From: Ostreococcus lucimarinus
Lineage: Eukaryota
Assembly: GCA_000092065.1 (NCBI GenBank)
Contig: CP000583.1
Length of the DNA: 64,000 bases
Reading direction: 5' to 3' (one strand)
The position numbers were made by a program, and so were the translations under genes. Each line of letters starts with the position of its first letter. The stretch's first letter is position 1. Below are positions 499 to 57,926 of this stretch, piece after piece. The notes beneath the pieces were generated by a model. That model searched no databases. It saw only the letters and a list, made by a program, of their open reading frames with translations, and was not told where the DNA came from.

Positions 499-1298
499 AT
501 GTCCAACCCCGTGTGCTACTTCGACATCGAGATCGGCGGCCAGCCCGCGGGTCGCATCGAGATGACCGTGCGTCTTCGCTCGCGCGCGCGCGAACGCGAC
601 GCGCGCCCGACGCGCGCGACGTTCGATCGCATCGCCGCCGATCGCCGCCGCGCGGAGATTATTAGATTGCTTCCGGAACGACGATGACTGACGAATCGCG
701 CGCCTTCGTCGTCGTAGGTTCGCGCGGACGTCGTGCCGAAGACCGCGGGTGCGTGCGCGCGAGCGGCGGCGCGAATGATGCGCGCGCGCGGGTGATGATC
801 GATCGGGATGAGCGCGGCGCGTAATCCGATCGGTTGACTCGGCGGCGACGGGACGGCGACGAACGAACGAACGGAGACTGACGATGGGTTTCTCGCGCGA
901 TAGAAAACTTCCGAGCGCTGTGCACGGGTGAAAAGGGCTTCGGCTACGAGGGCTCGAGCTTCCACCGCGTGATCCCGGGGTTCATGTGCCAAGGCGGCGA
1001 CTTCACGAACCACAACGGCACGGGCGGCAAGTCCATCTACGGCAACAAGTTTGAAGACGAAAACTTTGTCTTGAAGCACACCGGACCGGGCATCTTGTCC
1101 ATGGCGAACGCCGGCCCGAACACGAACGGCTCGCAGTTCTTCTTGTGCACGGCTGATACCGCTTGGTTGGACGGTAAGCACACCGTCTTCGGCGCCGTGA
1201 GCAAAGGCATGGACGTCGTCAAGGCGATCGAAGCCGTCGGCTCGCAATCCGGCGCGTGCTCCAAGAAGGTCACCATCGCCAAGTCCGGCGTCCTCTAA
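499..1298 (+). CDS. Cyclophilin-type peptidyl-prolyl cis-trans isomerase, 3 exons: 499..567, 718..748, 904..1298 (164 aa)
   Basis: Exon 1 [23 protein letters not shown] ends at a GTGCGT donor. Exon 2 [10 protein letters not shown] also ends at GTGCGT. Exon 3 (E)[41 protein letters not shown]...[10 protein letters not shown] is a canonical cyclophilin A-like sequence. Both introns carry an ACTGAC branch motif about 30 nt before the AG. Confidence 0.9.
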
Positions 1299-1422
1299 GG
1301 GCGACGCGCGTCTGCGTTACGTAAACCTGCCTTGATACGACGAGTTGATCCACGAGCGATGAATCGTTATTACTACTTTACAATAAAATGACGAAGCCTA
1401 CAATCGCCACCGCGCGTCGCCT

Positions 1423-1962
1423 TCAACCGTTCCGCTTCTCCACGGTCTCCCACCCGCGCAACGCGACGAGCGAACTCAAATTCACCACCTGCGCCGCGAC
1501 GATCGGCGCCGGTATCTCCGCGGGCGCGATGACGTTCGGAAAGTCTATTCCGAGGACGATTTCCGTGCTCGCGATCACGACGACGCCGACGTCGCCTACG
1601 AAGGACGCCGTCGCCAAGCCGAACGCCGCCGCCGGGCCGCCGAGCGCCCAGAGCAACGTCAGCGCGCGCACGGGCGCGTCGAGGGCGTCGAACGACGCGA
1701 CGCCGCAGGCCGAGGATATCGGTCCCGCGCCGAAGCAGTCGGGGAGGTGCAGAAGACCGCCGGCGAGGAAGAGCGGCGCGAGGACGGCGCGGTAGCGCGA
1801 CAACCCATCGGTCGCATCGCGCGGGACGAGGGAGAAAGACGCTTCTCCCTCGTCGCTCGCGCGCGCGCGCGCGACGAGCGAGCGCGACTGCGCGCGAGCG
1901 ATCGGCGAGCGACGGGCGACGCGCGCGTGGCCGCGCGAGACGCCCGTCGCGGTCGCGAGCAT
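1423..1962 (-). CDS. Possible small organelle-targeted membrane protein (Arg/Ala/Ser-rich N-terminus followed by two Gly/Ala-rich hydrophobic helices); low confidence
   Basis: The minus-strand ORF from MLATATGVSRGHARVARRS... contains hydrophobic stretches (LAPLFLAGGLLHL, LLWALGGPAAAFGLATASFVGDVGVVVIAS) that are unusual for random CG-rich frames. However, it lies only ~80 bp from the stop of the upstream minus-strand gene, and I recognise no homology. Confidence 0.25.
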   Translation of the reverse strand: MLATATGVSRGHARVARRSPIARAQSRSLVARARASDEGEASFSLVPRDATDGLSRYRAVLAPLFLAGGLLHLPDCFGAGPISSACGVASFDALDAPVRALTLLWALGGPAAAFGLATASFVGDVGVVVIASTEIVLGIDFPNVIAPAEIPAPIVAAQVVNLSSLVALRGWETVEKRNG

Positions 1963-2039
1963 CGCGCGCGAGAGACGCGCTGTGAAGGCAGAGGGCACGA
2001 CGCGGCGCGCGCGATTAAATGATTTTGTTACACGGAGAT

Positions 2040-3960
2040 TTAACGAATCCACGGCGACGCCAGGCCGAACGGGCTCAGGGTGTCCATAATTTGCTTGTTC
2101 AGCGCGCGGCCGAGCACGACTTGGGCTTCGTCGGGGCGAATCGGAATGACGGGATGGCTGGCGCCGCCGGAAACGCCCGCGCCGGAGACGACGCATCTGC
2201 GTAAAAGAGAATTTCCAGCCTCTAAACCGCTGACGTAGGCGCGCTCTTGGCACAAGCCCTTAGCGCCGTGCTCTCTGTCGCCCATGCGCACCCAATCTCC
2301 CGCGCATACGATGTTTGAAATGGACGTTTCGAGCGGCGGTCTTTTCGAATACGAGCCTGGAGAGAACCAGGAAACCGCTCCCGGGTACCTTCGCACTTCA
2401 AAGTCGACAGCTTTGACGCCCTTGAATCCCGGTACGGCGGCCGGAAGGAGCTCGTCCGTTAATAGTTTTACGATATCATCATCGCTCAAGCACGCGATGG
2501 CGCCGCCGTTGTAGAAATCGGCGGCGATGACGCTTCCTTTTGGCTCTTCGCCACCCCACAATTCAACTTCCGAGTCTTTTTGCAACTGGTCCAACATGAA
2601 GAAAGTACCCCCGGCGCCACGAAGGGCTTCAAATCTACTGAATACATTCGCTGGATGCTGCACGTCCACGTACTGATCCAACCAGATTCGCGTCGCCACG
2701 ACGTCAATGCCGCCGAGCGACGCTGCGGCGCTAAACTCTGGCGCCATGCGAGCCAAGACGGGAGAGTTGGACACCACGCTCTTCATGCCCTTTGCGCCGA
2801 GCGCGAAGACCACCGCATCAACGTCTTTGATCACGCCTGCTTTCCCGCCGTCCTTTTTCAGGTAGTGCACCGCCGTCGCCTTTTTTGTCGCCTCGTCCAC
2901 TTCAACTTTGCTGACAAACGTCGAGCCCATGACTTTCAATCCGTATTCGCTCTGCAGGCGAGCCATCGTGGGCCCGACGATGACTTCGGCTATACTCTTC
3001 GTCTTGATCCAGCGCACGTCGAACGAGTCTTGGTGCGCCAACGCGTAGTAATACAACAATTCCATCACGACAGCCGCCGAAAGCTCCTCTGGTGGCTTGA
3101 ACAACCCGACGAGCAACGTCGGGCGAATGAAATCGTCCACCAGTCGCTTACTCAATCCCATGCGAATGAACAGCTCGTGCGCAGTGAGCCTATCGTACGC
3201 CTCAAACGTCTTCTCATCGCGATTCAAATCCAACATCGCGTACAGCAAGCCGACCATCGTCACCCTATCGCTCAGAGGCAGTCGTTTAAAGTTATCGAAA
3301 GTCGCAAACACCTGTCCGAGAGGGCTCGGGAGCGCCATCGAATCCCCAAACACCGGCGCCGTCGCCTCCAACCCGTCCGGCGACCAAAACGAACTCGGCG
3401 TGAATTCTGTGAACGCATCCTTTTCGTCGATGTTCATCTCTCGACACAGATCGGAGATATTAGGATAATCTTTCCAAAACCCTGAATCATCGCACAAAGT
3501 TTCGTTTCATCGTCAGTCGTCGCGCTCTCTCGCGCACGCGAGCGACGCGCGTCGTCGTTCTTTTCGTCGTCATTCTACACGCACCGCGTGTTCCCGCCTC
3601 GAACGGTTTCCCGCTCTTCGTCAGCGTCGGCGTCGCGCCCGTGGGGTCGTCTTGCACGTCGACGAGCGTCACGTCCGCCCCGGCTTCGCACAGCGATTTC
3701 GCGGCGCCGATGCCGCCCCAGCCGGCACCGATGACGACGACTTTGGATATCGCATTCGCGCGCGCTGACGACGTCGCTGACGCCGCGACGCGCGTCGACG
3801 CGCGCGCACGAGGACGAGCGCGGTGTTTGGTCGCGACGTGCGCGCGCGCGCGCGCGCGCGAGGCCTGCGCGCCGAGCATATTCGCGCTCTGCGCGCCGAC
3901 GAGTGACGTCGGTCGGGCGGCTCGAGCGCAGCCGAGCCGAACGCGAATTCGATGAGTCAT
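2040..3960 (-). CDS. FAD-dependent amine-oxidase family flavoprotein, phytoene/zeta-carotene desaturase-like, with predicted plastid transit peptide; 2 exons on minus strand: 3585..3960 and 2040..3481
   Basis: Exon 1 carries the dinucleotide-binding motif KVVVIGAGWGGIGAAKSLCEAGADVTLVDV and ends ...PFEAGTR at a GTGCGT donor. The intron (~103 nt) has branch site GACGACTGACG and acceptor CAG. Exon 2 (G)FWKDYPNISDLCREMNIDE...CAGDWV...HGAKGLCQERAYVSGLEAGN resembles PDS/ZDS-family desaturases. Confidence 0.75.
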
Positions 3961-4000
3961 CGGCGATGTGCTACTGGAGTGTTTTACAATAAAAGTACAA

Positions 4001-8220: not shown

Positions 8221-9086
<866 letters not shown>

Positions 9087-9805
9087 GCTACTTTGTCGAG
9101 TCGTGGGTGAACAAAGAACGCGCGCGGTACGTGAAGATGAGCGCGACGAGTAAAACGCGATACTCTGTAACTAATCCGTCGGTTCTTTTACATCAAGCGC
9201 TCTCGCGAGCGTCGCCTCGCGCGTCGACGACTCGCCGAACCGTCGCCGTCGCGCCGAATCGCGCGGCGTTCAAACAATCAACCATCAATCGCGAAAGCAC
9301 ACCGAGCCCGTATTATTTCTTCTTATTACCCTTGCCCTTCTTCGCTCCCTTCTTCACCGCCTGTCGTCCCGCGCGCGTTCGCGTCGTCGGTCAGTCTCGC
9401 TTCGCGTTATCCAGTCCCCCGTCTCTCGCCCGCCCCCTCGCGCGTCTCCCGTCTCGATTCGCGCCCGCGCCCGCGCGCGTCTCCCCCCGCGCCTCCGCCG
9501 CGCGCCTTTCGAAGCGCGCGCGGTCGGCTCGCGCGTCCACGCACCTCCTCCGCCGCGATCTTTTCGTCGCGCGCGCGTCGCCATCGTCCCAGCGCGCTCT
9601 CCGCGTCCGCGCCCGAGCGCGCGGCGACGACGGCGCCGCCCACGAACGTCGCGCTCGCCACCGCAAACGCGGCGTTCAGCGTGCAGAACGGCATCGTCGC
9701 GAGTCGTCGTCCGCGCGCGCGAGTGCGGCGGCGACGGCGACGGTCGACCGACTGACCTAGAGCGTCGCCCCGCACACGCGCGCGCGCGCGCGCCGAGCGA
9801 CGACG

Positions 9806-10434
9806 ATGCTTCGAGCGATCGCGCGAGCGTCGCGAGCGGTCGCGGGCGTCGACGCGCGGCGACCGACGGGACGGGCGATCGACGCGCGACGCGCGGTCGG
9901 GACGTTCGTCGGCGCGGAGAGCGAGGAGTTGGCGTACGCGCCGACGAAAAAGGTGCGCGCGCGCGACGAGCGCGACGACGGCGCGCGCGACGGCGCGATG
10001 GGAGGACGACGACGATGCGCGCGCGTCGATGGACGGCGCGCGAAGGGACGAACGCGGGACTGACGCGACGCGCGCGCGCGAAAACGTAGGTGAAATTCGA
10101 ACCGACCGAACCGACGTTCATGACGCAGTTCACCCTGAACCGCGCGAACGCCAAGAGCACGATGGAGGGCGCGGAGGACGCCGAACGGTTGGTCGCGCGT
10201 CTGATCGGGATGCTCGGCGGGAGCTTGAAGACGTTTTACGTGACGCAGACGGGGGCGTTTGACGGCGTGTGCGTGTACACGTTTCCGAAAAACCACGACT
10301 CGAGGACGTTCACGTGCCTGCTGCGATCGAGCGCGGGGTACGATAGGATCGAGACGACGAAGTTGATGGCGAGCGCCGACGCCGCGATGTGCGCCAAGGC
10401 GGCGCGCGAGGTGGAGAAGCAGTTGAAGAAGTGA
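9806..10434 (+). CDS. Small organelle-targeted conserved protein of unknown function, 2 exons: 9806..9952 and 10090..10434 (~163 aa)
   Basis: Exon 1 MLRAIARASRAVAGVDARRPTGRAIDARR...ELAYAPTKK (presequence-like) ends at GTGCGCGCG. The intron has branch site GGGACTGACG 24 nt before TAG. Exon 2 VKFEPTEPTFMTQFTLNRANAKSTMEGAEDAERLVARLIGMLGGSLKTFYVTQTGAFDGVCVYTFPKNHDSRTFTCLLRS...EVEKQLKK* has non-CG-rich, protein-like composition. Confidence 0.5.
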
Positions 10435-10625: not shown

Positions 10626-11764
10626 ATGCCGTCGCCGTTCCCCGAGCGCCCCTTCGGCGTCGTCGATTCCACCGCGTACGCGCTCGAGGGGATGTACATG
10701 CCCAATCCCGGGGAGTTCGAACCTCCAAAGCTCACTTACGACGACTCTAACGCGGTACGCGCGACTGTTTACGACGATTTCGACGACGATTGCGCAACCT
10801 CGAATCCGCGACTGACTCGAACGGTTTCGCGTCGTGTCAGCGAACGACGACGCTCGTGGGGGGTAAGAAAGCCGTGAAGACCGTGCAGTGGTCGGTGGGA
10901 GGCGATAAGCTCGCGTCCGGGGGAGTGGAGCACGACGTGCGCGTGCACGATGTCGAACACGGGGCGGGCACGGGACGAGGGGCGCAGACGCTTCGAGGAC
11001 ACGCGGGCGCGGTGGAGCAATTGCGGTTCGATCCGTCGCGTCAAGGAGGTGATCGCGCGCTGACTGTGAGTTCGGATAAAACGGCAAAGATTTGGGACGC
11101 GAAGAGCGGGAAATGCGCGGGGACGATCGAGATGAAGGAAGGATTGATGAACGCGGCGTGGTCGCCGAGCGGGCGGCACGTCGCCGTCGGGAGCAAGTCG
11201 GACGTGATCTCGATCGTCGACGTGACGACGATGAAGGTGATTTGGGAGCAAAAGTTCAAGTACGAGGCGAATGAGATGATGTGGGATAAGACCGGGAAAT
11301 CGTTCATGATGGCGACTGGAGAAGGGAAAATGGAAAAGTTTACGTTTGACGAGACGACGGGATCGTTGACGCCGCTTTCATCGCATTTTGCACATAATGG
11401 CGGGTGTTACTGCATGGCGATCGACCCTACCGGAAAGTATCACGCCATGGGTGCTGCAGATGCGATCGTGAGCTTATGGGAGTCTGAAACAAACATCTGC
11501 TACGACACTATCGTGCGCTTGGACTACCCGATTCGCTCAGTTTCCTACAGCCACGATAGCCGATATATAGCCGCCGCTTCGGAAGATTTAAAAATAGATG
11601 TCGCAGAGGTGATGACTGGCGATTGCGTGGCACAAATCAAAACGAAAGAGGCGATGAATACCATAGCGTTTCACCCGAAGGAATTGGTTCTGGCGTACGC
11701 CGGCGACGGGGGAGATATTTCGCTGTGGAGCGCGTTCACCGCCATCTCTGCAGGTACAAAGTAG
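10626..11764 (+). CDS. THOC3: THO complex subunit 3 (THOC3/TEX1) WD40 protein, 2 exons: 10626..10754 and 10868..11764 (alternative in-frame acceptor at 10841)
   Basis: Exon 2 KAVKTVQWSVGGDKLASGG...DKTAKIWDAKSGKCAGTIEMKEGLMNAAWSPSGRHVAVGSKSDVISIVD...MGAADAIVSLWESETNICYDTIVRLDYPIRSVSYSHDSRYIAAASEDLKIDVAEVMTGD... aligns along its whole length to THOC3. Exon 1 ends at a GTACGC donor, and branch site CGCGACTGACTCG lies upstream of the acceptor. Confidence 0.85.
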
Positions 11765-19743: not shown

Positions 19744-19899
19744 CGCGGCGTCGAATGCGGGTTCGAACTTTCAAGCCGCGGGGACGCGCGCGGAACTTTG
19801 CGACGCGCGCGACGCGCCTTCGCGAGCGCGCGCGAGAGAGAACGTCCGTGAGTATGATTAGCATCGCACGGCGCGAACGCGCGCGTCGTTGAGCGCACG

Positions 19900-25893: not shown

Positions 25894-27158
25894 TTAGAGG
25901 TCTTGGCTCCACGTCATGCGGAGTTGGACGTCGTCCGGGTTCACGCCACCGTCCTTGGAGAACGGCACTCGGAGCTCGTACTTGTCCTTGGTGACGGAAA
26001 GCTTACCGTTCACATCTTGGTCGACTTCAGCCTTGACGCCGACGCCTTCAATGCCAGAGTAGTTGACAGTGGCCTTGTGCGTCGCCTTTTGGGAGTTGAC
26101 GTTGACAACAGACTTGACGCCGAGGTTGACGTCGCCGTTCGTGTAACCCAAGTCGACGGTGGCGTTTTGGCTCGGCACGTCGTATTCGACGGACGCGGTG
26201 ACGTCGTTGACCTTGAGCACGTCGGTCAAGTTGACCTTGACGGAGGCGCGGTCGGCGCCTTGCGTGTCGCCGTCGACCTTGGAGCCGGCTTGCGCGAGCG
26301 TCACGGTGACATCGCCGAGCTTGTCGTGGTTGGTGGAGATTCTCAAAGAACCAGCTTGACCCTATTCATTCAAAAAGTACATCGCGTCGTCGTCAGTCAC
26401 CCAGTCGTCGCGAAATAGAGTCGAGAATTCATCTTCGCGCGCGTTCGCCGCGCCGCTGACTGTGCGCGTGCGCGCGCGCTCGCCCTCGTCGGTACGCACC
26501 GACTTGATGTTTTGGATCCCGAGCGAGACGTCGCAGTCTTGGCCCGCGAGTTCCGCGGACTTGTTCACGGTAACATCGTAATCAGAGATGTTGGACAACC
26601 CAACCAAGGAATCGGCGTCGATGTTGTGCGACACGCCATTCTTGGAAGAAATGCTGCGTGGGGCAAAAAGGGCACGCCAGGGTCAGTCGCTGAATTGCGA
26701 AGGATTTCTTCTTCCCCCTCCGCGCGCGCGCGCGTTCGCGCCACCGCGCGCGACGCGTTCGAAGACGCGTAATCTTTATCATCGCATGCGACATCCCTCG
26801 TCCGCGTTCCACCACCGCGCGACGCGACACGCGCGGCATCGATGGCGCAATTAATCGCTAAACGAGAAAGAATCCTCGCGTCGGCGCCCCCGATCGCGCG
26901 CACCTCGGGCGGTAGTTCGGCTTGGCGTTCAGCGACACCGAACCGGAGCCGTTGCAGATCGGCGCGGAGGCGGAGATTTTAAAAGAATCTTCCGCGCACG
27001 AACCGTTACCGCCGACGACAATCTGCGCGCGCGCGAAACCAGTCGAGACAAAGTCAGTCGCTGACGTGTCGATGCGTCGCGAATCCCTATAATTCCCATC
27101 GCGCGATTCATCGCTCGCGTCGTCGCGTCGCGAGACGTACGCGACCGGACATGGACAT
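25894..27158 (-). CDS. Beta-strand-rich porin-like protein (VDAC/OEP-like candidate), 4 exons on minus strand: 27141..27158, 26904..27022, 26500..26653, 25894..26361
   Basis: Exon 1 is ATG TCC ATG TCC GGT CGC (MSMSGR) in a GCCACCATG Kozak context, ending at a GTACGT donor. Every intron has a GTGCGY donor, an ACTGAC branch site and an AG acceptor, and the frame is preserved throughout. Assembled protein ...IVVGGNGSCAEDSFKISASAPICNGSGSVSLNAKPNYRP-S-ISSKNGVSHNIDADSLVGLSNISDYDVTVNKSAELAGQDCDVSLGIQNIKS-GQAGSLRISTNHDKLGDVTVTLAQAGSKVDGDTQGADRASVKVNLTDVLKVNDVTASVEYDV...KYELRVPFSKDGGVNPDDVQLRMTWSQDL* shows alternating polar/hydrophobic beta-strand character. Confidence 0.55.
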
Positions 27159-27520: not shown

Positions 27521-28003
27521 CCCGTCGTCCTCGCGAAAAAGCGTGGGGGGGTGGAAAAAGGCGCGCGCGGTCGGTCGGCGTCCGAATGTCCGAATGTCCG
27601 CCGAGCCGTCCGTGTGTGCGTCGCGTCTCGCGTTCGCGCGACGCGACGCCCGCGGCGCGCGACCGCGCGCGTCGGTCTTTTGTCGTCGCGCGACCGCACG
27701 AGTCATCATGGTGCGTTCGCGGCGAAGCGCGCGATCGATCGCGCGCGATGGCGCGGACGCGCGACCGCGCGCGCGACCGCGCGGCGTCGGTCGCGGCGCG
27801 GCGTCGCGCGGAAGCGCGGAAGCGCGATGATGGAATAGGGTTTTCGTGCGCGCGGTGGCCGACGACGACGACGACGACGACGGCGCCGGCGACGCGCGCG
27901 AGCGGTCGGCGATGGACGATACGGACGGTGGTGGATGTTCGCGTCGCGCATCGCGCGTCGATGGGGCGCGAACGGCGATGGAGGTGATGGAATCGAAGGA
28001 TGA

Positions 28004-32612: not shown

Positions 32613-33152
32613 CTGCGATCGAACGAAGTTTATATTCTCCAGTCAGTCTCGTCGTCTCGTGATCGCGCACGCCCATCCGTCGTCGTCCGCCGACGCGCCC
32701 GCCGCTCTAAAAAGTCTGTTCCCCCCCCGATCCACGTTTTCACGGTTCACGACTCGTGCCGACCCCCATCCGCGGCGATAAGAGCGAAACCGTATCTCGC
32801 GCGCGGCGTCCCGCCCGATCGCCCGCGTCGCGCGCGCGTCGCCCGCGACCGACGCCTCGACCCCCGACGTCGCGCGACGCGCGCGACACATTTCCAGCAT
32901 CCACCGCGCGCCGTCCCGCGCCCGTCCGCGCGACACCGCCCGCGCGAGGGCGCCGCGCGCGATCGCCCACCGCGATCGATCGCCCGATCGTTCGTTCGTT
33001 CGTTCGACGCGCGCGCGTCGCGTCCCTCGCGCGCGTCGTCGTCCCGCGCGTCGTCGCGCGTCGCGCGAAGGCTAAAAAATACGCACTTGGATCTTGGTCG
33101 CCTTGAAGGCGGCGACGCGGCCGACGAAGGAGGAAGCGAGAAGGGCAGACAT
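31977..33152 (-). CDS. Light-harvesting chlorophyll a/b-binding protein, copy A; 2 exons on minus strand: 33087..33152 (MSALLASSFVGRVAAFKATKIQ) and 31977..32612
   Basis: Exon 2 AKSVSTTVKADIYPEFGTYPGGGESPIIPFGDEKNAEREVIHGRWAMLGVTGAWAAENG...GGRFDPLGLAESGDLEELKIKELKHCRLSMFAWLGCIFQALATQEGPIANWQSHVADPVHSNVLTNAAKGFGFY* has the LHC helix-1 and helix-3 signatures. The 474-nt intron runs GTGCGT...GAGACTGACTGG...CGCAG. Confidence 0.85.
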
Positions 33153-33488: not shown

Positions 33489-34614
33489 ATGTCTGCCCTT
33501 CTCGCTTCCTCCTTCGTCGGCCGCGTCGCCGCCTTCAAGGCGACCAAGATCCAAGTGCGTATTTTTTAGCCTTCGCGCGACGCGCGACGACGCGCGGGAC
33601 GACGACGCGCGCGAGGGACGCGATCGCATCGCGCGCCATCGATCGACGGCGTGAGATACGCGACATCGCGCGCGCGGCGCGCATCGCGTCGTCGCGACGC
33701 GGGACGTGCGACGCCGCGAAGGGCGTCGCGGGAAGCGATGTCGATGATTATTTGTGATCGCGACGCGACGCGCGTCGGCGTCGCGACGCGTCGCGACGGG
33801 CGAGCGGGCGCTCGATCGCCGCGGCGATAGGATAACCGCGATACGGATATTTTCTATCTGTTTGTTTGACTGGACGAAGCGCGGGCGCGGGGCGGAGGAC
33901 GCGGGTGATTGGATCGATCGTTCGAGCGAAGAGAGGAGACTGACGAAAGAAACGCGATGTGTTTTACGAAATGAACAGGCCAAGTCTGTCTCCACGACGG
34001 TCAAGGCTGACATCTACCCGGAATTCGGTACCTACCCGGGCGGTGGCGAATCCCCGATCATCCCGTTCGGCGACGAAAAGAACGCCGAGCGTGAAGTGAT
34101 CCACGGCCGCTGGGCGATGCTTGGCGTCACCGGTGCGTGGGCCGCCGAAAACGGCACCGGCATCCCGTGGTTCACCGCGGGTACCTTGTGCACCCCGGAT
34201 GACTGCACCGCCGTCGCGGACAAGTTCCCGGGCGCCGTCGCCCCGCTCGCGCCGGAAGGCTCTGGCTACCCGTCCTTCTGGAACGTTCTCATCATCGAGA
34301 TCGTTCTCGTCGGCGCCGCGGAAGCGTACCGTACCGGTATCTCCGACTCTCCGTTCGATGATGGCCTCACCGTCGGTGACGTCAACCCGGGTGGACGCTT
34401 CGACCCGCTCGGCCTCGCCGAGTCTGGCGACCTTGAAGAACTCAAGATCAAGGAGCTCAAGCACTGCCGCTTGTCCATGTTCGCGTGGTTGGGCTGCATC
34501 TTCCAAGCGCTCGCCACCCAAGAAGGCCCGATCGCCAACTGGCAATCCCACGTTGCGGACCCGGTTCACTCCAACGTCCTCACCAACGCGGCCAAGGGCT
34601 TCGGCTTCTACTAA
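33489..34614 (+). CDS. Light-harvesting chlorophyll a/b-binding protein, copy B (identical protein to copy A); exons 33489..33554 and 33979..34614
   Basis: Same exon sequences as copy A in inverted orientation. The 424-nt intron runs GTGCGT...GGAGACTGACGAAAG...GAACAG, and only its first ~65 nt match the copy A intron. Confidence 0.85.
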
Positions 34615-38561: not shown

Positions 38562-39816
38562 ATGCGCGCGTCGTCATCGCACGCGCGCGCGCGTGTCGGT
38601 AGAAATCATGTTCACGCGTCGCGCGCGCGCGCGCGTGGGGTGGACGGTGGACGGCCTTCGCGTGTGGCGACGGCGGAACCGTCGCTAATTCGGGAAGGAT
38701 TGGTGTCGAGCCGTGGGACGCGGGGCGGGGCGCGCGTGCTGGTTCAAACGGGCGCGATCGATCCCGCGAGCGCCGTGTCGGCGGTCCAGGGGTTCGTGCT
38801 CGACGGGTCGCCGGGTTTGCGTGCCGCGGCGATGGCGAATACCGCGGTGTTTACGAGCGGCTTCGGCGTCTTGCGACTCGGGTTGACGCTCGCGGGTATC
38901 GCGCACTCGTGGTTTCTCGGAACGGTGCGTGAATCGCCAGAAACACGCGTGGCGATGCGCATTTAGATTTTTTGTCGCGAGTGCGACGCTCGAACGACCG
39001 TGGGAGGTGATGACAGATGACAGATACTTCCGAGCGCGCGCAACGCGGACCGACAATCGTCGGTGCAGCGACGGCCGCTCCGTGAGCGAGTATCAAAATA
39101 TTAGTTTTCAATCTGATCCCGGAGGTTTCTGATAGTTCTGAGACTCGTTTTTTGTGCGTTCGACAGACTGACTCGCTTTTCCCGCGCGCACGCAGGTCGT
39201 CATGGCGGCGTTTGGTGTCGGAGGATACGCTCTCGTGTGCGCCTACTTCATCGTCGGCAGTGCGGTGACAAAGATAAAATTGAAGGAAAAGCAAGCCGAG
39301 GGGATAGCGGAGGCGCGGGGAGGGCTTCGTGGCCCCGGAAGCGTGTGGGGGAGCGGGACGGCGGGGATTTTGTGCGCTATTGCGGCGCTTTCGGGATGGA
39401 CACCCGTGTCGTTGGAACTCTGGCGGATCGGTTTCGTGGCGAGCTTTTGCAGCAAACTCAGCGACACCACCGCAAGTGAGATCGGCAAGGCCTACGGCAA
39501 GACGACCTATATGAGCACGCCACCGTTCAAGTTAGTTCCCAGAGGTACGGAGGGCGCCGTTAGCGTCGAAGGAACCGTGGCTGGTATCGTCGTATCGGGT
39601 CTGTTCGCCGGGCTTGCGTTCATCATCGGTCAACTGGATGCCGTCGGCGTCGGTGTATGCGTCCTCGCTGCCTTCATCGCGACGACCTTCGAGAGCATGC
39701 TCGGGGCGGCTGTGCAGGGTAGAAAAGGATTTGATTGGATGTCTAACGACGTGGTGAACGGAATACAGATCACGCTCGCGGCTGGGGTGGCCATCGCGTT
39801 GAGAACAATCGTCTGA
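38562..39816 (+). CDS. DUF92/TMEM19-like integral membrane protein, 2 exons: 38562..38924 and 39196..39816
   Basis: Exon 1 ...GIAHSWFLGT ends at a GTGCGTG donor. The 271-nt intron has branch site GACAGACTGACTCG and acceptor CGCACGCAG. Exon 2 VVMAAFGVGGYALVCAYFIVGSAVTKIKLKEKQAEGIAEARGGLRGPGSVWGSGTAG... (RGG.R motif) plus further TM segments. Confidence 0.7.
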
Positions 39817-48115: not shown

Positions 48116-49586
48116 ATGTCGACGGCGTCCACGTCGTCGTCGTCGTCGACGTCGGCGCCGATGACGGCGAGCGAGATTCGCGCGCGCGTGCGACGCCAAA
48201 AAGTCGACCCGCGCGTGTCGCTGGACGTCTACTTCAGAACCGCCGAACACGTGCATCTACAGGTGCGCGCGCGCTCGCGACGCGCTCGCGACGCGCGCCG
48301 ACGGTAGAACTCTCGAGCGCGCGCGCGCGAAGCGCGAGCGACGACGGCGACGACGGGAAAAGGGGACGCTCGATTGGATTGGGACGCGGCGTCGGTTGAC
48401 CGAACGCGAGCGACGCGCGCTCGCGACGCGCGGAACGACGGCGCCGCGAGACTGACGGCTCGCGATGCGATGTGCGCTCGTCGCGATCGCGCAGGCAAAG
48501 ATTTATAGGAGCGAAGGAAACTTGCCGCAGCTGTACAGGCTGTTGTACGCGTACGCGTCGGTGGTGTTGGATACGATGGCGGAGCACGGCGACTGGGACG
48601 ACGTAAAGTACGCCGAGCGGGTGAAACGGGAGAAAACGAGGACGGAGGAGGCGTTAGCGGAGATGGAGTCATTGAAACCGGTGATCGATGCGGAGGCGGA
48701 GGCGTGGAGACGATCGGCACCGCGGCGCGGGGCGAAGTCGGCGGCGGTCGGAGCCGCCGCCGGCGCGTCGTCGTCGTCCACAAAGGGCGCGACCGGGGGG
48801 GATGGGGACACGAACAGGAACACGACGGTACCTAAAGCGAGCGGAGAGACGCTGACGAAGCACTCGATGTTCGACGGGCGTCTACCGAGTGCCACGGACA
48901 CGGCGACGGCGGCTCGAACGGCGGCGGCGAACCCGAGCGGAGCCGTCGTCGAAAAGAGTACCACCGCGCCCGCACCGAGCGTGGGGACGCGACAAGAAAA
49001 CGCAGCGAGACACGCCCACTCGCTGTTACCTCCGCCGCCACCGCCGCCTCCAGCGCTCGGGGATGGGGACTCCGCGGCGTTTTCGCAGAGCCTGATGCGC
49101 AACGCGGCGAGCGTGGATTTCCAACCCAAAGTCATCGTCCAGATTCCCACCACGGACGAGGCGGCCACGGACCACACGCGCTTAGACACCCGTCTAAAGC
49201 TGTACAACCTGCGCGAGAAAGTCGTCCGCGGCGACGGGAACTGCCAATTCCGCGCCGTCGCCGATCAACTCTTTCGCGACCAAGAGCGTCACGCCGAGTG
49301 TCGCGCCGTCGTCGTCGATCAACTCCGCCGCGCCTCCGAAGACTACGCTCCCTACGTTCCCGAAGATTTCGACGCGTACGTCGAATCCATGGCCAAGGAC
49401 ACCGCGTGGGGCGATCACATCACCCTTCAAGCCGCCGCCGACGCCTACGGCGTTCGCATGTGCGTCATATCCAGCTACCGGGACAACTTTCTCGTCGAGA
49501 TCACCCCCAAGACGGCGCGCAGCGCGCGCGTGTGTTGGATCTCCTTCTGGGCCGAGGTACACTACAACTCCGTGTACCCCGCGTAG
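48116..49586 (+). CDS. OTU-domain deubiquitinase-like protein, 2 exons: 48116..48262 and 48495..49586
   Basis: Exon 1 MSTASTSSSSSTSAPMTASEIRARVRRQKVDPRVSLDVYFRTAEHVHLQ ends at GTGCGCGCG. The 232-nt intron has branch site GCGAGACTGACGG and acceptor CGCGCAG. Exon 2 AKIYRSEGNLPQLYRLLYAYASVVLD... ends with the OTU catalytic core VVRGDGNCQFRAVADQLF...DTAWGDHITLQAAADAYGVRMCVISS...WAEVHYNSVYPA. Confidence 0.8.
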
Positions 49587-49679: not shown

Positions 49680-51119
49680 ATGGGTAAACAGTATGCTTCA
49701 CGCCACGGTGCCGAGGCCGTGTTCGACGTCACCGCGCGCGTCACATCGCGCGCCATGTCCGCGACGGCGTGCAAGTTTTACCTCGCCGGCGCGTGCCGGA
49801 ACGGCGCGTCGTGTCGATTCTCGCACGACGCCGACGCGAGCGCGAGCGCGAGCGCGCGCGCGTCGACGGAGACGCGCGAGCGATGCAAATTCGTCGACGC
49901 CCCCGGTGGGTGCACGTTCGGCGATCGATGCAAGTACGCGCACGGCGCGAGCGACGCCGGCGCGAGCGACGTCGCGAGGGCGTTCAGTCGCGTGACGCTC
50001 GCCACCGGGGCGGGACGCGGGATGTCGGCGAGCGCGACGGCGTTCGCGCCGGGAGGGACGCGGGGGAACGCGAACGCGAACGGCGCCGAATACGAACACG
50101 GCGAAGAGGAGGACGAAGATTGGGGATACGTGGACGAACACGGGAATTGGGTGTCGTTCGACGACGAGGGCGAGGGCGCGAGGGAGTTTTTGGCGGCGCA
50201 GTTGCCGGACGAGGACGAGCTGTTGGGACTGACGAGCGAGGGGCCGAGCGGGGCGGGCGACGACGCGTGGGGGTTCTTCGACGAGGGCGGGAATTGGGTG
50301 TCGCTCGAGGGAGAGGGACAGCGGTACCTACAAACGCAGGAAGATTTGGTGCGTTGAGGACGATGGGCGTCGACGAGGAAGAGGGAGCGATGACGAGGAG
50401 GATGTACACTACGCGCGACGAAGTATTCGCCGCGACTGAATTCCGACGATTGTAATTTGATTCACGCAAGCGCTAACGATTATGCATGAGTCTGACGGCT
50501 TGCGCGTTTTCATTCCTCGCAGGGCATCGGTCGGGAGGACTCGTTCGTCGACGACGGCGTCGACGAAAGCGCGGATGAGGACGCGGAAGCGGAGGACGCG
50601 GAAGTCGCGCGACTCGAGGCTTCGCAAAATTTAGAGTGCGTGGTGTGTTTGGAAGTCGTCGTCGAGAAACCTCGCTTCGCGGATCGACGATTCGGGCTGT
50701 TGAACGCGTGCGAGCACTGCTTTTGCCTGAATTGCATTCGCGGATGGCGTCAGGGAGGAACGCAGCGAGGGGCCGAAGCGAGCGCTTCGAGCAACGAACA
50801 AGCGCGCATGTGCCCGATTTGTAGGACGACTTCTCACTTCATTACGCCGACGACGTCGTGGCCGAGAAACGACGAAGAAAAGACACAGATGATCGACTCG
50901 TACCGAGAACGGATGGGCAAAATACCGTGCAAACATTTCGACGGCGGCGACGGCACGTGTCCGTTTGGAACTTCGTGTTTCTACGAACACAGATACCGCG
51001 CTACGGGCGAGTTGGAGAGCGCCGAAGTACGGAAAAGCACCGCTTCAGACGGGAGTTTGAACATCCTCACTCCGGTTCGATTGAGCGATTTCATCCAGAC
51101 GTCGAGAAGGTTTAGATAG
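49680..51119 (+). CDS. MKRN: Makorin-type E3 ligase (two CCCH zinc fingers + C3HC4 RING + C-terminal CCCH), 2 exons: 49680..50348 and 50523..51119
   Basis: CCCH fingers CKFYLAGACRNGASCRFSH and CKFVDAPGGCTFGDRCKYAH. Exon 1 ends ...QTQEDL at a GTGCGT donor. The intron has branch site GAGTCTGACGG and acceptor CCTCGCAG. Exon 2 GIGREDSF...ECVVCLEVVVEKPRFADRRFGLLNACEHCFCLNCIRGWR...MCPICR (RING) ...IPCKHFDGGDGTCPFGTSCFYEH (final CCCH). Confidence 0.85.
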
Positions 51120-55365: not shown

Positions 55366-55694
55366 GGTTTCGCGACTCACGGCGCGCGCGCGACGCCGCT
55401 CGGGAGGTCTTCGCGCGAGCGTTCGCGCGAAGAGAATTCCTTCGTGCCGCGGACGCGACGCGCGCGTGCGTGTGACGCGCGCGAGGGCGTCTGAGGGCGA
55501 CGCGCGCGCGGCCGCCGTCGCTCGAGGAGTCGCTTCGAGTGGATAGCGCCTGCGCCTGCGGAAAATCGAATTCGACGAGTCAGGACTCGTCGGCAGTCCC
55601 CGAATGACGTTTCTCCCGCGAGACGCGCGAGGGACGAGGGCGATTGAGGACGCGAAGCGTGGATCGGTGTGACAAAAACTAACGATTTGGCGCG

Positions 55695-56804
55695 TCACGT
55701 CGTCGCCTTGGTGGATTGCGAGGGACGACCGACGTCGTAGCCGCGAGTGATTTTGGGCGAACTCTTGAGCTTGTCGCGACGCTTGCGCTGAAACGCGAAT
55801 TGACGCTCGCGGAAAATCTGAGGAATGTCTTTTCCCGTGGTTTCCATCTCCTTCTTGTAGGATTCGAGCACGATTCGAACGTCTTGGACGTTTAAGCGGA
55901 CGATGGACTCGAGGAATGGCATCAAGTCCAGCAGGGCGGTGTCTTTGGAGCCGTCTTCGTACGTCCACGGTTTGATGGGAATGACGTTGGCGGCGTGAAG
56001 CTCGGCGCTTCTCGGTTTGCTGCTAATGTACAAAATCTGCCCCATGTCCCGATTGAGCTTGCTTAAATCTCTGATGTACTCTCCGTTCTTGTACTGCGCT
56101 GATTCCCGATACAAACGATGAGTGACGTATCTCGTCGGGTCCAAGCGTTCGATGATCGGGTCGCCGTACGTCATCAACTGATCCGTGAAAATCACCATCT
56201 CGTAAAACTGCGACATGTGCTTCAGGAACGCGTCCACTCCGGGTCTCTTGAAAACCCTCCACCCGCGCTCGCGCTTCCAATTGGAGTTTATCAGCGTATC
56301 ATCTAAGTCTAACACCAGCGTGTGCGGAATGTACTCGGCTTGCGCCGGGTGATCGGGCAGCAACTTATCGCTGATCGGATCGAGATAATTATGCGACTGA
56401 TCGTCCATCCACTGACGAAACTTCAACACTTGTTCGACCAATCCTCCGTACGCGCCCTCGAGCGGCGTCCCGCGCATCGTCGTCGGCACGTGTTCGCCCG
56501 CCTCGACGCGTTTCGCCAGTTCCTCCGTCGTGCTCGCGTACATCGACCCCCCCACCACGCACCCCACGCCCGCTCCGACCACGAGCGCCGCGGTTCCGAG
56601 TCCATCGGATATCTTACTCGCCGTCGTCGGCGCTTTCGCCGCTTCTTCGCGCGCATCGCCGAACCAGCGTCGTTTCGTTCCTCCGCGCCAAGGATTCGCC
56701 GTCGCGTTCGGCGAGCTCCCGCGCCCGATCGCGCGCTCGCGTCCGCTCGGCCCGCTCGCGACGCCGCGCGCGCATCGCGCGAGTCGATCGGCGACGCGTC
56801 GCAT
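55695..56804 (-). CDS. TIM50: Mitochondrial inner-membrane presequence translocase subunit TIM50 (FCP1-like phosphatase domain); the track ORF is open to 57551 but the upstream part is rejected
   Basis: Start chosen at [14 protein letters not shown] (presequence-like). TM segment [22 protein letters not shown], then FCP1/NIF domain [49 protein letters not shown]... Confidence 0.85.
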
Positions 56805-56940
56805 CGCCGCCGGTCTCGCGTCGCGTCGCGCGCGCGCGTTTTTGTGACGAATGCGCGAGTCGATCGTCGATCCCAATCGTGAATTCCGCACAAATACGCG
56901 CGCTCGCGCTCGCGCGCGTCTCTCGCGTCGCTCGTCGAGC

Positions 56941-57926
56941 ATGGGGAACGCGCAGAATAAGGCGCGAAACGCCTCGGACGGCGCGTCGGCGCCGGAGACG
57001 CGCGCGAGACGAAGCAGGGACGGGCGAGGGCGGGACGCGAGTCGGAGCAACGGCAGCGAGAGCGCGCGCGGCGCGGCGAGCGAGAGCGGCGAGCGAGGGC
57101 ACGGGGGATGGGAGGGCGCGGATGCGCTTTCGTACGGGTGCGCGCGCGATCGCGACGGCGAACGAGGGAGGGAAACGCGCGCGGGGCGCGCGGGGAAGAG
57201 AGTCCCGAGCGCGAGGGCGCGGCGCGGCGACGCGCGGCGACGAGGACACGACTGACGAACGCGCGCGCGAACAGACCGCAAACGCCCACGGTGCCGATAC
57301 CCGGCGGGGAGGGTGGAGGGGTGAATTACCCGGCGTGGGCGACGACGGAACCGGCGCTGGTGCCGGTGGCGATAAATTGGACCCAAGGCGGGAACAGCGT
57401 GGAGGTGGAGGGGAGCTTTGATAACTGGCAGTCTCGGCAGACGCTGCATCGGAGCGGGAACAGGGAGTTTGCGATCGTGATGTCGCTGCGACCGGGGGTG
57501 TATCAGTACAAGTTTATAGTGGATGGACAGTGGAAATACGCGCCGGATCAACCGGCGATGTACGACGAGATTGGCAACGTGAACAACGTGTTGGAGGTGC
57601 AGGAATACGTGCCAGAAATTTTGGATAGCTTGGATGCGTTTACGGCGCCGGCGTCGCCACCGGCGAGCTACGATTGCGCACCGTTTAACTCGGACGACTT
57701 TGCAAAGGAACCGCCACCGCTACCACCGCAGTTGCACATGACTCTGTTGAACATGCCCATGGTGCCCGACGCGCCGAATTTGCTCCCGCGACCGCAACAC
57801 GTGGTGCTCAATCACACGTATTGCGACGGGACAAAGTCGGAGAGCGGAGTGCAGGTGCTCGGAACGACGCACAGATATCGATCAAAGTACATCACGGTCG
57901 TCTTCTTGAAAGCCACGCAATCGTAG
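56941..57926 (+). CDS. AMPK/SNF1 kinase beta (regulatory) subunit with N-myristoylation motif, CBM48 glycogen-binding domain and ASC domain; 2 exons approx 56941..57137 and 57275..57926
   Basis: MGNAQNKARNASDG (MGN myristoylation start). Exon 1 ends at GTGCGCGCG. The intron has branch site GACACGACTGACG and acceptor GAACAG. Exon 2 ...GGVNYPAWATTEPALVPVAINWTQGGNSVEVEGSFDNWQSRQTLHRSGNREFAIVMSLRPGVYQYKFIVDGQWKYAPDQPAMYDEIGNVNNVLEV... and C-terminal ...HVVLNHTYCDGTKSESGVQVLGTTHRYRSKYITVVFLKA. Confidence 0.8.

What the first reader, a model, noticed from the sequence alone, without database searches (positions are those of the whole stretch)
499..57300. Highly stereotyped intron grammar: GTGCGT/GTACGT donor and (G)AGACTGACG branch site
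Every intron I could reconstruct begins G|GTGCGT, G|GTGCGC or |GTACGT. Each also contains ACTGAC, usually in the longer form GAGACTGACGATG, located 25-45 nt upstream of a (C/T)AG acceptor. This holds for both cyclophilin introns, the PDS-like intron, both NAC-alpha introns, the small-protein intron (branch site at 10047), the THOC3 intron, the three porin-like introns, both LHC introns, the DUF92 intron, the OTU intron, the makorin intron and the AMPK-beta intron. The introns are 100-470 nt, extremely CG-rich, and several share a CGAACGAACGAACG motif. Such rigid signals resemble those of intron-poor yeasts or introner-element families that spread as repeats, and they can be used to find further missed exons.
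Basis: seen in the sequence. Interest (0 to 1): 0.6.

Follow-up and report, generated by a model that had tools for sequence, protein, structure and literature searches.

The report
Known strict intron signals of Ostreococcus
The window is from the tiny marine green alga Ostreococcus lucimarinus, and its introns do share an unusually rigid start (GTGCGT) and branch site (GACTGAC), but this was measured genome-wide and published in 2008, and the introns are not copies of a spreading repeat.

Summary
The window is Ostreococcus lucimarinus CCE9901 nuclear DNA, on a 982,987-bp record outside the atypical chromosome 2. I modelled 19 introns in 14 genes. All 19 start GT[G/A]CG[T/C]. Seventeen contain ACTGAC and 16 contain GACTGAC. 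The branch A lies 19-39 nt before the 3' end, and the acceptor is the first YAG downstream in all 19.

Spliced RNA contigs confirm 12 introns at the exact junction. Five more (plus several RNA-confirmed ones) match NCBI proteins exactly or are colinear with homologues.

- NAC intron 1 has AATTAAC, not ACTGAC.
- The makorin intron has GTCTGAC, and it is unspliced in all five RNA contigs that cover it.
- The (CGAA)n motif occurs in only two introns.

The grammar is already published. Irimia & Roy 2008 report 87% ACTGAC, 66.5% GACTGACG, a GTGCGTG donor and a 20-35 nt branch-to-AG distance. Verhelst 2013 extends it to the Mamiellophyceae. Roy & Bowser 2022 found that U1 snRNA is unchanged.

The yeast-like reading is supported. 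The introner reading is not, because the introns share no sequence, terminal repeats or target-site duplications.

Verdict: ordinary, already known, low interest.

The parts
568..717 (+). Cyclophilin intron 1 (150 nt). Donor ACC|GTGCGT, branch GATGACTGACGAAT (A at 691), acceptor TAG.
   Evidence: The spliced 164-aa product equals XP_001416738.1 exactly. The related species (L050) has an intron at the same position with the same grammar. No RNA contig was obtained.
749..903 (+). Cyclophilin intron 2 (155 nt). Donor CGG|GTGCGT, branch GGAGACTGACGATG (A at 881), acceptor TAG. Contains (CGAA)3.
   Evidence: Exact NCBI protein match. Orthologous intron present in L050.
3482..3584 (-). Donor GCG|GTGCGT, branch GACGACTGACGATG (A at 3513), acceptor CAG.
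   Evidence: The exact spliced junction is present in 5 RNA contigs, L001 and L003-L006. The product equals XP_001417029.1. The intron is absent from the orthologue in L050/L051.
8257..8441 (+). NAC-alpha intron 1 (185 nt). Donor GAG|GTGCGT. It has no ACTGAC; the likely branch is GAAATTAACGACG (A at 8409). Acceptor CAG.
   Evidence: Spliced in 6 RNA contigs, L008-L013. Sequence shown.
8476..8649 (+). NAC-alpha intron 2 (174 nt). Donor ACG|GTACGT, branch AGACACTGACGATG (A at 8616), acceptor CAG.
   Evidence: Spliced in 6 RNA contigs, L008-L013.
9361..9544 (-). Donor GAG|GTGCGT, branch GCGAGACTGACCGACG (A at 9391), acceptor CAG.
   Evidence: Found by scanning with the grammar. Spliced in L009, L010, L013 and L014. 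The product equals XP_001417032.1.
9953..10089 (+). Donor AAG|GTGCGC, branch CGGGACTGACGCGA (A at 10063), acceptor TAG.
   Evidence: The product equals XP_001416741.1. Spliced in L014 and unspliced in L008. GYD domain.
10755..10840 (+). THOC3 intron (86 nt). Donor GCG|GTACGC, branch CGCGACTGACTCGA (A at 10815), acceptor CAG.
   Evidence: The spliced 328-aa product (start at Met23) equals XP_001416742.1. There is no RNA proof: L014 is unspliced and the spliced junction is absent from JGI contigs.
27023..27140 (-). Intron 1 of the 257-aa 'porin-like' protein, which has no Pfam hit (118 nt). Donor CGC|GTACGT, branch AGCGACTGACTTTG (A at 27054), acceptor CAG.
   Evidence: Spliced in 10 RNA contigs, L022-L031. 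The product equals XP_001417037.1.
26654..26903 (-). Intron 2 of the 257-aa protein (250 nt). Donor GAG|GTGCGC, branch AGCGACTGACCCTG (A at 26683), acceptor CAG.
   Evidence: Spliced in 10 RNA contigs.
26362..26499 (-). Intron 3 of the 257-aa protein (138 nt). Donor TCG|GTGCGT, branch GGTGACTGACGACG (A at 26393), acceptor TAG.
   Evidence: Spliced in 10 RNA contigs.
27711..28036 (+). Ribosomal protein L11 (uL5) intron, directly after the start codon (326 nt). Donor ATG|GTGCGT, branch AATGACTGACGACG (A at 28011), acceptor CAG.
   Evidence: The product equals XP_001416745.1. Spliced in L032.
33555..33978 (+). Intron of the prasinophyte LHC gene, plus-strand copy (424 nt). Donor CAA|GTGCGT, branch GGAGACTGACGAAA (A at 33943), acceptor CAG.
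   Evidence: The product equals ABO95040/ABO95332. It is spliced in JGI metatranscriptome contigs L035-L039; L035, L036, L037 and L039 run on into this copy's own 3' UTR.
32613..33086 (-). Intron of the LHC gene, minus-strand copy (474 nt). Donor CAA|GTGCGT, branch CGAGACTGACTGGA (A at 32643), acceptor CAG. Contains (CGAA)4.
   Evidence: The protein is identical to the plus-strand copy. Only the first 69 nt of the intron are shared with the other copy. L034 may derive from this copy.
38925..39195 (+). DUF92 / VTE6-like intron (271 nt). Donor ACG|GTGCGT, branch ACAGACTGACTCGC (A at 39171), acceptor CAG.
   Evidence: The junction SWFLGT|VVMAAFG is colinear with Bathycoccus, Astrephomene and Coccomyxa homologues. 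Orthologue P0312 reads through an intron at the same site, starting 'VR' (GTGCGT). No exact protein or RNA match was found.
48263..48494 (+). OTU deubiquitinase intron (232 nt). Donor CAG|GTGCGC, branch CGAGACTGACGGCT (A at 48455), acceptor CAG.
   Evidence: Spliced in 7 RNA contigs, L015-L021.
50349..50522 (+). Predicted makorin intron (174 nt). Donor TTG|GTGCGT, branch GAGTCTGACGG (not ACTGAC; A at 50495), acceptor CAG.
   Evidence: The intron is needed to join the CCCH-finger ORF to the RING ORF, which has no start of its own. The orthologue's ORF also ends LVR*. However, it is unspliced in 5 of 5 RNA contigs, L015-L019, and the spliced junction is absent from JGI contigs.
57138..57274 (+). 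AMPK beta-subunit intron (137 nt). Donor CGG|GTGCGC, branch CACGACTGACGAAC (A at 57255), acceptor CAG.
   Evidence: The spliced 282-aa product is in the collection. Spliced in L007.
60803..61057 (-). Candidate intron only (255 nt). Donor GAT|GTGCGT, branch ACGAGACTGACGCGGA (A at 60823), acceptor CAG. It lies either in a 66-aa ORF or in the 5' leader of the PP2C-kinase gene.
   Evidence: It matches the full grammar. No exact protein match was found. The downstream ORF is hypervariable, with premature stops in environmental haplotypes. No RNA evidence was obtained.

Best explanation
These are ordinary U2-type GT-AG spliceosomal introns from the intron-poor, high-GC bulk of the Ostreococcus lucimarinus genome, that is, everything outside the atypical half of chromosome 2. 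In this genome the splice signals are held close to a single consensus. The donor is G|GTGCGT, the branch site is GACTGAC(G), there is no marked polypyrimidine tract, and the acceptor is the first YAG about 20-40 nt downstream of the branch A.

Shown here: the signals are present, the introns are removed from RNA at exactly these boundaries, and the introns are unrelated singletons whose interiors are not conserved between species or paralogues.

Inferred from established knowledge of splicing. The donor is read by U1 and then U6 snRNA. With the standard ACUUAC of U1, positions +1, +2, +5 and +6 pair, +3G wobbles and +4C mismatches. The branch sequence pairs with the GUAGUA of U2 and bulges the A. 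The 3' site is then found by scanning to the first YAG.

From the literature. The rigidity goes with low intron density, as in hemiascomycete yeasts. It is not explained by a changed U1 snRNA.
For: - Organism and locus: exact protein matches to O. lucimarinus CCE9901 entries on a 982,987-bp record.
- Splicing: exact spliced junctions for 12 introns in independent Logan and JGI RNA contigs.
- Protein-level support: my spliced models give exact NCBI protein matches for the cyclophilin, GYD-protein, 65-aa-protein, THOC3, 257-aa-protein, RPL11 and LHC genes, and RNA contigs encode the NCBI ZDS-like protein contiguously. Homologue colinearity supports the DUF92 intron.
- Signal statistics: donor GT[GA]CG[TC] 19/19, ACTGAC 17/19, motif-to-AG distance 16-36 nt.
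- Acceptor: first YAG downstream in 19/19, with pyrimidine content only 34-73%.
- Published values for EST-confirmed non-chromosome-2 introns of this species (PMC2483917): 87.2% ACTGAC, 66.5% GACTGACG, donor GTGCGTG, branch-to-AG distance 20-35 bp, acceptor preference CGCAG.
- Other species: the same grammar is reported for canonical Mamiellophyceae introns (PMC3879977). I also saw it in six introns of a related species' contig.
- U1: the pairing sequence is standard in five Mamiellales (bioRxiv 10.1101/2022.06.08.495308).
- No ORF in the window requires an intron that lacks the grammar. RNA contigs covering roughly half the window show no other gaps.
Against: - Two predicted introns, makorin and THOC3, are colinear with the genome in every RNA contig that covers them. 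Their spliced junctions were not found in JGI contigs.
- One candidate (60803-61057) has no support beyond the motif.
- The roles of U1, U6 and U2 are inferred, not tested here. The +4C and the G preceding ACUGAC do not pair with canonical U1 and U2.
- With only 19 introns the sample is small.
- The search for introns lacking the grammar rests on ORF continuity, so UTR introns could have been missed.
Confidence: 0.95

Rival explanations
1. The introns are copies, or decayed copies, of an introner-like mobile element that carries its own splice signals. This happens in Micromonas pusilla, Micromonas commoda (ABC-IE/IE-C) and Aureococcus.
For: The IE-C introners of Micromonas RCC299 carry the same GACTGACG branch motif (PMC3879977). 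The ZDS-like intron is present here but absent from a related species, so some turnover of introns does occur.
Against: - There is no sequence similarity among the 19 introns beyond CG-rich low complexity.
- Lengths range from 86 to 474 nt.
- There are no target-site duplications or terminal inverted repeats.
- The cyclophilin introns sit at conserved positions in another species, with unrelated interiors.
- The literature classes these as singleton canonical introns.
Confidence: 0.03
2. The rigid, atypical signals reflect co-evolved or duplicated spliceosomal RNAs. Examples would be a U2 or U6 variant complementary to GACUGAC or GUGCGU, or a second spliceosome that serves the bulk genome separately from chromosome 2.
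For: - Irimia & Roy raise this possibility explicitly.
- The near-invariant G before ACUGAC (17/19) and C at donor +4 (19/19) are not explained by pairing to canonical U2 and U1 (plus textbook snRNA sequences).
- The G and A preferred at the two positions upstream of GACUGAC (14/19 and 10/19) would extend pairing with U2 nucleotides C40 and U39. This is my inference.
Against: - U1 keeps the standard ACUUAC in five Mamiellales.
- Only single copies of the spliceosomal RNAs were reported in O. tauri, as cited.
- No snRNA gene lies in the window.
- I could not retrieve the U2 or U6 sequence.
Confidence: 0.08
3. The pattern is an artefact of CG-rich composition combined with the reader choosing motif-bearing boundaries.
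For: The hexamers alone are at chance frequency in the window. Shuffled sequence still yields about 4.5 composite sites.
Against: - Twelve junctions are fixed independently by RNA contigs, and further models by exact matches to annotated proteins.
- Seventeen of 27 ACTGAC copies fall in 3% of strand space (P about 1e-19).
- All 17 composite sites are modelled introns.
Confidence: 0.01

Closest known systems
Canonical (non-chromosome-2) spliceosomal introns of Ostreococcus lucimarinus, as characterised by Irimia & Roy 2008 (PLoS Genet 4:e1000148)
   Same: The species is the same. The donor consensus is GTGCGT(G). ACTGAC frequency is 89% here against 87% published. The extended motif is GACTGACG. 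The branch-to-AG distance is about 16-36 nt against 20-35 nt published. Acceptors are of the C-R-C-A-G type. The signals are strong and intron density is low.
   Different: Nothing of substance differs. GACTGACG is somewhat rarer here (53% against 66.5%), and information content at +3 to +6 is higher (about 6.1 bits against 4.8 bits). Both differences are within what 19 introns can show.
Canonical introns of Mamiellophyceae (Micromonas RCC299 and CCMP1545; Verhelst et al. 2013)
   Same: The donor is AG|GTGCGT and the branch motif is NCTGAC. They are singleton introns without mutual similarity.
   Different: In Micromonas the branch point is reported 43-52 bp from the acceptor. Here it lies 19-39 nt away. 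Micromonas also carries introner families.
Introns of intron-poor hemiascomycete yeasts (GTATGT donor, TACTAAC branch)
   Same: A near-invariant donor hexamer and branch heptamer occur in a genome with few introns. There is a pyrimidine at donor +4 without a compensating U1 change. Introns are biased to the 5' end of the gene: in 12 of 14 genes the first intron lies in the first third of the coding sequence.
   Different: The consensus sequences differ (GTGCGT and GACTGAC), in keeping with a 61% GC genome. The lineage is independent, so the similarity is convergent.
Introner elements (Micromonas D-IE and ABC-IE/IE-C, Aureococcus, fungal introner-like elements)
   Same: They are sense-oriented, spliceosomal and strong in their signals. 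IE-C shares the GACTGACG branch motif.
   Different: Introners are defined by high sequence identity among many copies and a narrow length range. These introns share no sequence and vary more than five-fold in length.

Membership tests
U2-type GT-AG spliceosomal introns | GT at the 5' end and AG at the 3' end | tested here: met
   19 of 19.
U2-type GT-AG spliceosomal introns | Precise removal from RNA | tested here: met
   Exact junctions for 12 introns in RNA contigs. Makorin and THOC3 were seen only unspliced. For cyclophilin (both introns), the minus-strand LHC copy, DUF92 and the 60803-61057 candidate, no RNA contig settles the junction.
U2-type GT-AG spliceosomal introns | A YTRAY branch site upstream of the acceptor | tested here: met
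   CTGAC in 18 of 19 and TTAAC in one, 19-39 nt from the 3' end. Actual branch usage (lariats) was not tested.
O. lucimarinus canonical non-chromosome-2 intron class (Irimia & Roy 2008) | Donor consensus GTGCGT(G) with high information content | tested here: met
   GTGCGT 11, GTGCGC 5, GTACGT 2, GTACGC 1. About 6.1 bits over positions +3 to +6.
O. lucimarinus canonical non-chromosome-2 intron class (Irimia & Roy 2008) | ACTGAC in about 87% of introns and GACTGACG in about two thirds | tested here: met
   17 of 19 (89%) and 10 of 19 (53%).
O. lucimarinus canonical non-chromosome-2 intron class (Irimia & Roy 2008) | Branch-to-AG distance of roughly 20-35 bp | tested here: met
   16-36 nt by their definition.
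O. lucimarinus canonical non-chromosome-2 intron class (Irimia & Roy 2008) | Located outside the low-GC, intron-dense part of chromosome 2 | tested here: met
   The window is 61% GC. The record is 982,987 bp. The introns are 86-474 nt long and 54-77% GC, not 40-65 nt and AT-rich. The chromosome number itself was not read from a record title.
Introner elements | Many introns in one genome with high mutual sequence identity | tested here: not met
   No similarity among the 19 introns except between the LHC paralogues. No extra copies in the window or in the fetched loci. A genome-wide test was not possible.
Introner elements | Transposon hallmarks: target-site duplication and terminal inverted repeats | tested here: not met
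   Junction microhomology is 0-5 nt. The longest terminal inverted run is 11 nt of GCGC low complexity.
Introner elements | A narrow, family-specific length | tested here: not met
   Lengths range from 86 to 474 nt.
U12-type (minor spliceosome) introns | RTATCCTT donor and a TCCTTRAC branch site 10-15 nt from the acceptor | tested here: not met
   No donor resembles ATCCTT. NAC intron 1 has a TTAAC branch but a GTGCGT donor, and its branch lies 32 nt from the 3' end.

The most novel reading that the evidence does not exclude
The ZDS-like intron (3482-3584) may be a recent, lineage-specific gain that arrived carrying a complete G|GTGCGT ... GACGACTGACG ... CAG signal set. It is absent from the colinear orthologue of a close relative and from a more distant relative's contiguous ORF. 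If so, Ostreococcus would still be creating introns from a source that carries the grammar, such as a cryptic low-copy introner related to the Micromonas IE-C elements that share GACTGACG. Part of the uniformity of the signals would then be inherited rather than selected.
Probability: 0.07. Interest if true: 0.45.

Novelty: already known. Interest (0 to 1): 0.12.

Why it matters
As a finding it adds nothing new. The donor, branch motif, spacing and acceptor preference of these introns were quantified from ESTs in 2008, and the obvious follow-up on U1 co-evolution has been done. Its practical value is modest but real. In this genome a three-part rule (GTRCGY, then GACTGAC, then the first YAG 19-39 nt later) had no false positives among 17 sites in 64 kb, with one site unverified. 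That makes it a useful check on gene models, which for Ostreococcus are known to contain unreliable intron calls.

Tried and rejected
- Hexamer enrichment window-wide: ACTGAC and GTGCGT alone are at chance frequency. Only their placement is informative.
- Introner test: all-against-all intron BLAST, a search of the window and loci with each intron, and TSD/TIR checks were all negative.
- Shared CGAACGAACGAACG motif: present in only two introns.
- Exact-protein look-ups for my DUF92, makorin and 66-aa models found nothing under either start codon. A chimeric homologue search gave no 100% hit for them.
- Spliced-junction scans of JGI contigs for makorin and THOC3 found no matches.
- An Rfam scan of the window for snRNA genes found none.
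- Selection against cryptic branch sites: CTGAC is depleted outside introns (64 against 109 expected). It is not an outlier among 5-mers that contain stop codons (rank 77 of 1024), so I do not claim avoidance.
- Introns lacking the grammar: a coding-potential and ORF inventory of about 42 genes found none required.
- U1 co-evolution: already tested and rejected in the literature.
- Population variation in splice signals: the environmental contigs are 99.7-99.9% identical to the window, so they are uninformative.

Full report
**Identity of the window.** A 488-codon ORF at 2043-3506 (minus strand) found 100%-identical proteins. Their cluster contains XP_001417029.1 of Ostreococcus lucimarinus CCE9901, on a 982,987-bp record. 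Spliced products that I modelled from the window then matched further O. lucimarinus entries exactly:
- cyclophilin, XP_001416738.1
- a GYD-domain protein, XP_001416741.1
- a 65-aa protein, XP_001417032.1
- THOC3, XP_001416742.1
- a 257-aa protein, XP_001417037.1
- ribosomal protein L11, XP_001416745.1
- the prasinophyte LHC protein, ABO95040/ABO95332

The window is 61% GC. It belongs to the normal, high-GC part of the genome rather than the low-GC region of chromosome 2.

**Checking the observation.** The bare hexamers are not enriched. ACTGAC occurs 27 times against 23.6 expected, and GTGCGT 67 times against 64.7. What is non-random is where they lie.

I then scanned both strands for the composite GT[GA]CG[TC] ... 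ACTGAC ... YAG. The composite occurs 17 times, against 4.5 +/- 2.2 (maximum 12) in 200 dinucleotide-preserving shuffles. All 17 sites are modelled introns.

Seventeen of the 27 ACTGAC copies fall on the sense strand of introns. Introns occupy 3.1% of strand space, which gives a binomial P of about 1e-19.

The final set is 19 introns in 14 genes. The figures are as follows:
- Donor: +1G 19, +2T 19, +3 G16/A3, +4C 19, +5G 19, +6 T14/C5. Exon position -1 is G in 14.
- Branch site: ACTGAC 17, GACTGAC 16, GACTGACG 10.
- Branch A to intron end: 19-39 nt.
- Acceptor: CAG 15, TAG 4. It is the first YAG after the branch A in 19 of 19.
- The branch-to-acceptor segment is only 34-73% pyrimidine, so there is no marked polypyrimidine tract.
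- Lengths are 86-474 nt and pooled GC is 66%.
- CpG observed/expected is 2.05 in introns, 1.3-1.6 in sampled exons and 1.61 window-wide.

- NAC-alpha intron 1 (8257-8441) has no ACTGAC. Its likely branch is GAAATTAACGACG.
- The makorin intron has GAGTCTGACGG rather than ACTGAC.
- THOC3 uses GTACGC, a fourth donor variant.
- CGAACGAACGAACG is a short (CGAA)n run found in only two introns.
- Two introns that fit the grammar were missed. One lies in RPL11, directly after the ATG (27711-28036). The other lies in the 65-aa protein gene on the minus strand (9361-9544).

**Independent evidence that these are real introns.** Exact-sequence look-ups returned assembled RNA contigs (Logan assemblies of sequencing runs and JGI metatranscriptomes) that are 99.7-100% identical to the window. 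These contigs lack precisely the predicted intervals:

| Intron | RNA contigs with the exact spliced junction |
|---|---|
| ZDS-like | 5 |
| NAC intron 1 | 6 |
| NAC intron 2 | 6 |
| 65-aa protein | 4 |
| GYD protein | 1 |
| 257-aa protein, each of 3 introns | 10 |
| RPL11 | 1 |
| LHC, plus-strand copy | 5 (4 run on into its own 3' UTR) |
| OTU | 7 |
| AMPK-beta | 1 |

That makes 12 introns confirmed at the exact junction. The two cyclophilin introns, THOC3 and the second LHC copy rest on exact identity of my spliced product to the NCBI protein.

DUF92/VTE6 rests on colinearity with homologues from Bathycoccus, Astrephomene and Coccomyxa. In addition, one orthologue's gene call reads straight through an intron at the same codon, beginning 'VR', which is GTGCGT translated.

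Two predictions remain unproven at the RNA level. The makorin intron is colinear with the genome in all five contigs that cover it, although those same contigs splice the neighbouring OTU intron. THOC3 is unspliced in the single contig that covers it. Neither spliced junction exists in JGI contigs.

The makorin intron is still needed to join the CCCH fingers to a RING domain whose ORF has no start codon. Its donor is conserved in a diverged orthologue whose ORF also ends LVR*. I therefore regard it as real but poorly or conditionally spliced. This is an inference.

A nineteenth site (60803-61057, minus strand) fits the grammar but has no other support. The ORF downstream of it is hypervariable and carries premature stops in environmental haplotypes. 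If it is real, it is more likely a 5'-leader intron of the PP2C-kinase gene.

**Are there introns that break the grammar?** A codon-usage scan and an ORF inventory of about 42 genes found no gene that needs another intron. The RNA contigs cover roughly half the window. They show no gaps relative to the genome other than the introns listed above. UTR introns in the uncovered regions cannot be excluded.

**The introner hypothesis.**
- All-against-all comparison of the 19 introns yields only 14-34-nt matches of GCGCGACG-type low complexity.
- Searching the window, two environmental contigs and a related species' contig with every intron finds only such compositional hits.
- The one true match is the first 69 nt of the two LHC introns. 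It belongs to a 91%-identical 5' block of an inverted gene duplication. The remaining 340-390 nt of the two introns are unrelated, while exon 2 is 100% identical over 650 nt.
- Junction microhomology is 0-5 nt. The longest terminal inverted run is 11 nt of GCGC.
- In a related species (contig L050; ZDS protein 85% identical), the two cyclophilin introns sit at the same codons. They have G|GTGCGT donors, GACTGAC branches and TAG acceptors, but unrelated interiors.
- The RPL10 and mitochondrial-carrier genes on that contig follow the same rule.

Selection therefore maintains the signals. The introns are not copies of one another.

**What is already known.** Irimia & Roy 2008 (PMC2483917) devote a section, 'The Peculiar Case of Ostreococcus', to exactly this. 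Among 319 EST-confirmed O. lucimarinus introns outside chromosome 2:
- 87.2% contain ACTGAC and 66.5% contain GACTGACG.
- The donor consensus is the atypical GTGCGTG (4.8 bits).
- The branch-to-AG distance peaks broadly at 20-35 bp.
- The acceptor prefers CGCAG.

They interpret this as convergence with intron-poor yeasts. They contrast it with the weak signals of the intron-dense part of chromosome 2.

Verhelst et al. 2013 (PMC3879977) report AG|GTGCGT and NCTGAC for canonical introns across the Mamiellophyceae and class them as singletons. They note that only the Micromonas IE-C introners share the GACTGACG motif.

Roy & Bowser 2022 (bioRxiv 10.1101/2022.06.08.495308) searched five Mamiellales for a U1 snRNA complementary to the GYGCGY donor. 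They found only the standard ACUUAC.

My 19 introns reproduce the published numbers closely: 89% against 87% for ACTGAC, and 16-36 nt against 20-35 nt for the distance.

**Mechanism.**
- Shown: precise excision at these boundaries, and conservation of the signals but not of intron interiors.
- Inferred from textbook spliceosome biology: U1 and then U6 read the donor. With canonical U1, positions +1, +2, +5 and +6 pair, +3G wobbles and +4C mismatches. U2 GUAGUA pairs with ACUGAC with a G.U wobble and a bulged A. The first YAG beyond about 19 nt is used as the acceptor.
- Also my inference: the G and A preferred at the two positions upstream of GACUGAC (14/19 and 10/19) would extend pairing to U2 C40 and U39. 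The near-invariant G immediately before ACUGAC would face U2 A38 and is unexplained.
- I could not obtain the U2 sequence of Ostreococcus to test for a compensating change. The window holds no snRNA gene.

**Verdict.** The 'intron-poor yeast-like' interpretation is supported and the 'introner' interpretation is not. The whole pattern is already in the literature for this very species, so interest is low. The only loose end with some novelty potential is the ZDS-like intron. It is present in O. lucimarinus but absent from the colinear orthologue of a close relative. It is also absent from a more distant relative whose Tara record gives a contiguous 1803-nt ORF. Whether this is a gain or a loss is unresolved.

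Noticed in passing
window 3482-3584 (-); L050 3202-3317: The ZDS-like intron is absent from the orthologue in a related Ostreococcus-like species. There the 571-aa ORF is contiguous and the sequence is colinear across the insertion point. It is also absent from a more distant relative whose Tara record gives a contiguous 1803-nt ORF. This is an intron presence/absence difference of unknown polarity.
   Followed up: partly
window 50349-50522 (+) and 10755-10840 (+): The makorin intron is one of the two that lack ACTGAC. It is retained in 5 of 5 RNA contigs that splice the adjacent OTU intron. The THOC3 intron is retained in the one contig that covers it. This may be regulated or inefficient splicing.
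   Followed up: partly
window 31966-32615 (-) and 33976-34625 (+): The two divergently oriented LHC genes are 100% identical over 650 nt: exon 2, the last 3 nt of the intron and 11 nt of 3' UTR. They are 91% identical over the 5' UTR, exon 1 and the first ~80 nt of the intron. The intron interiors are unrelated. This looks like gene conversion with a sharp edge at the 3' splice site.
   Followed up: partly
window 53032-55041 (-), within the methionine synthase ORF 51217-56022; L040, L043, L045-L048: Several environmental contigs that are about 99.7% identical to the window carry an in-frame tandem duplication of about 2 kb inside MetH. It gives a 2084-aa product with the S-methyl_trans and Pterin_bind domains doubled, against 1383 aa in the window and in L041 and L044. 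It is either a real polymorphism or an assembly artefact.
   Followed up: no
window ~60690-60770 (-), upstream of the PP2C-kinase gene: This is a dimorphic, hypervariable segment. Environmental haplotypes carry one of two unrelated sequences that differ by 27 nt, and several scaffolds break here with runs of N. The adjacent candidate intron and exon are 100% conserved.
   Followed up: partly
whole window: CpG is over-represented: observed/expected is 1.61 window-wide, 2.05 in introns and 1.3-1.6 in sampled exons. This is unusual for a genome reported to have CG methylation.
   Followed up: no
window 27708-27713 (+): The RPL11 intron interrupts the gene immediately after the ATG start codon (ATG|GTGCGT). 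Exon 1 therefore contributes only the initiator methionine to the protein.
   Followed up: yes
Its exact sequence is nevertheless listed in 295 blocks of the collection (nearly all contigs under 2 kb, every one read being spliced), so it seems to be an abundant transcript of unknown function.
   Followed up: partly
L022 1-1512: The first 1.5 kb of this JGI metatranscriptome contig encode a 371-aa product and do not match the window. The rest of the contig is colinear with 20383-27248. The contig is either chimeric or reflects a rearrangement in an environmental strain.
   Followed up: no
window 19858-25599 (+): A single 1914-codon ORF lies in a stretch of distinctly lower GC (53-54% against 61% for the window) and has weak codon-usage signal. 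RNA contig L022 covers it without any intron.
   Followed up: no
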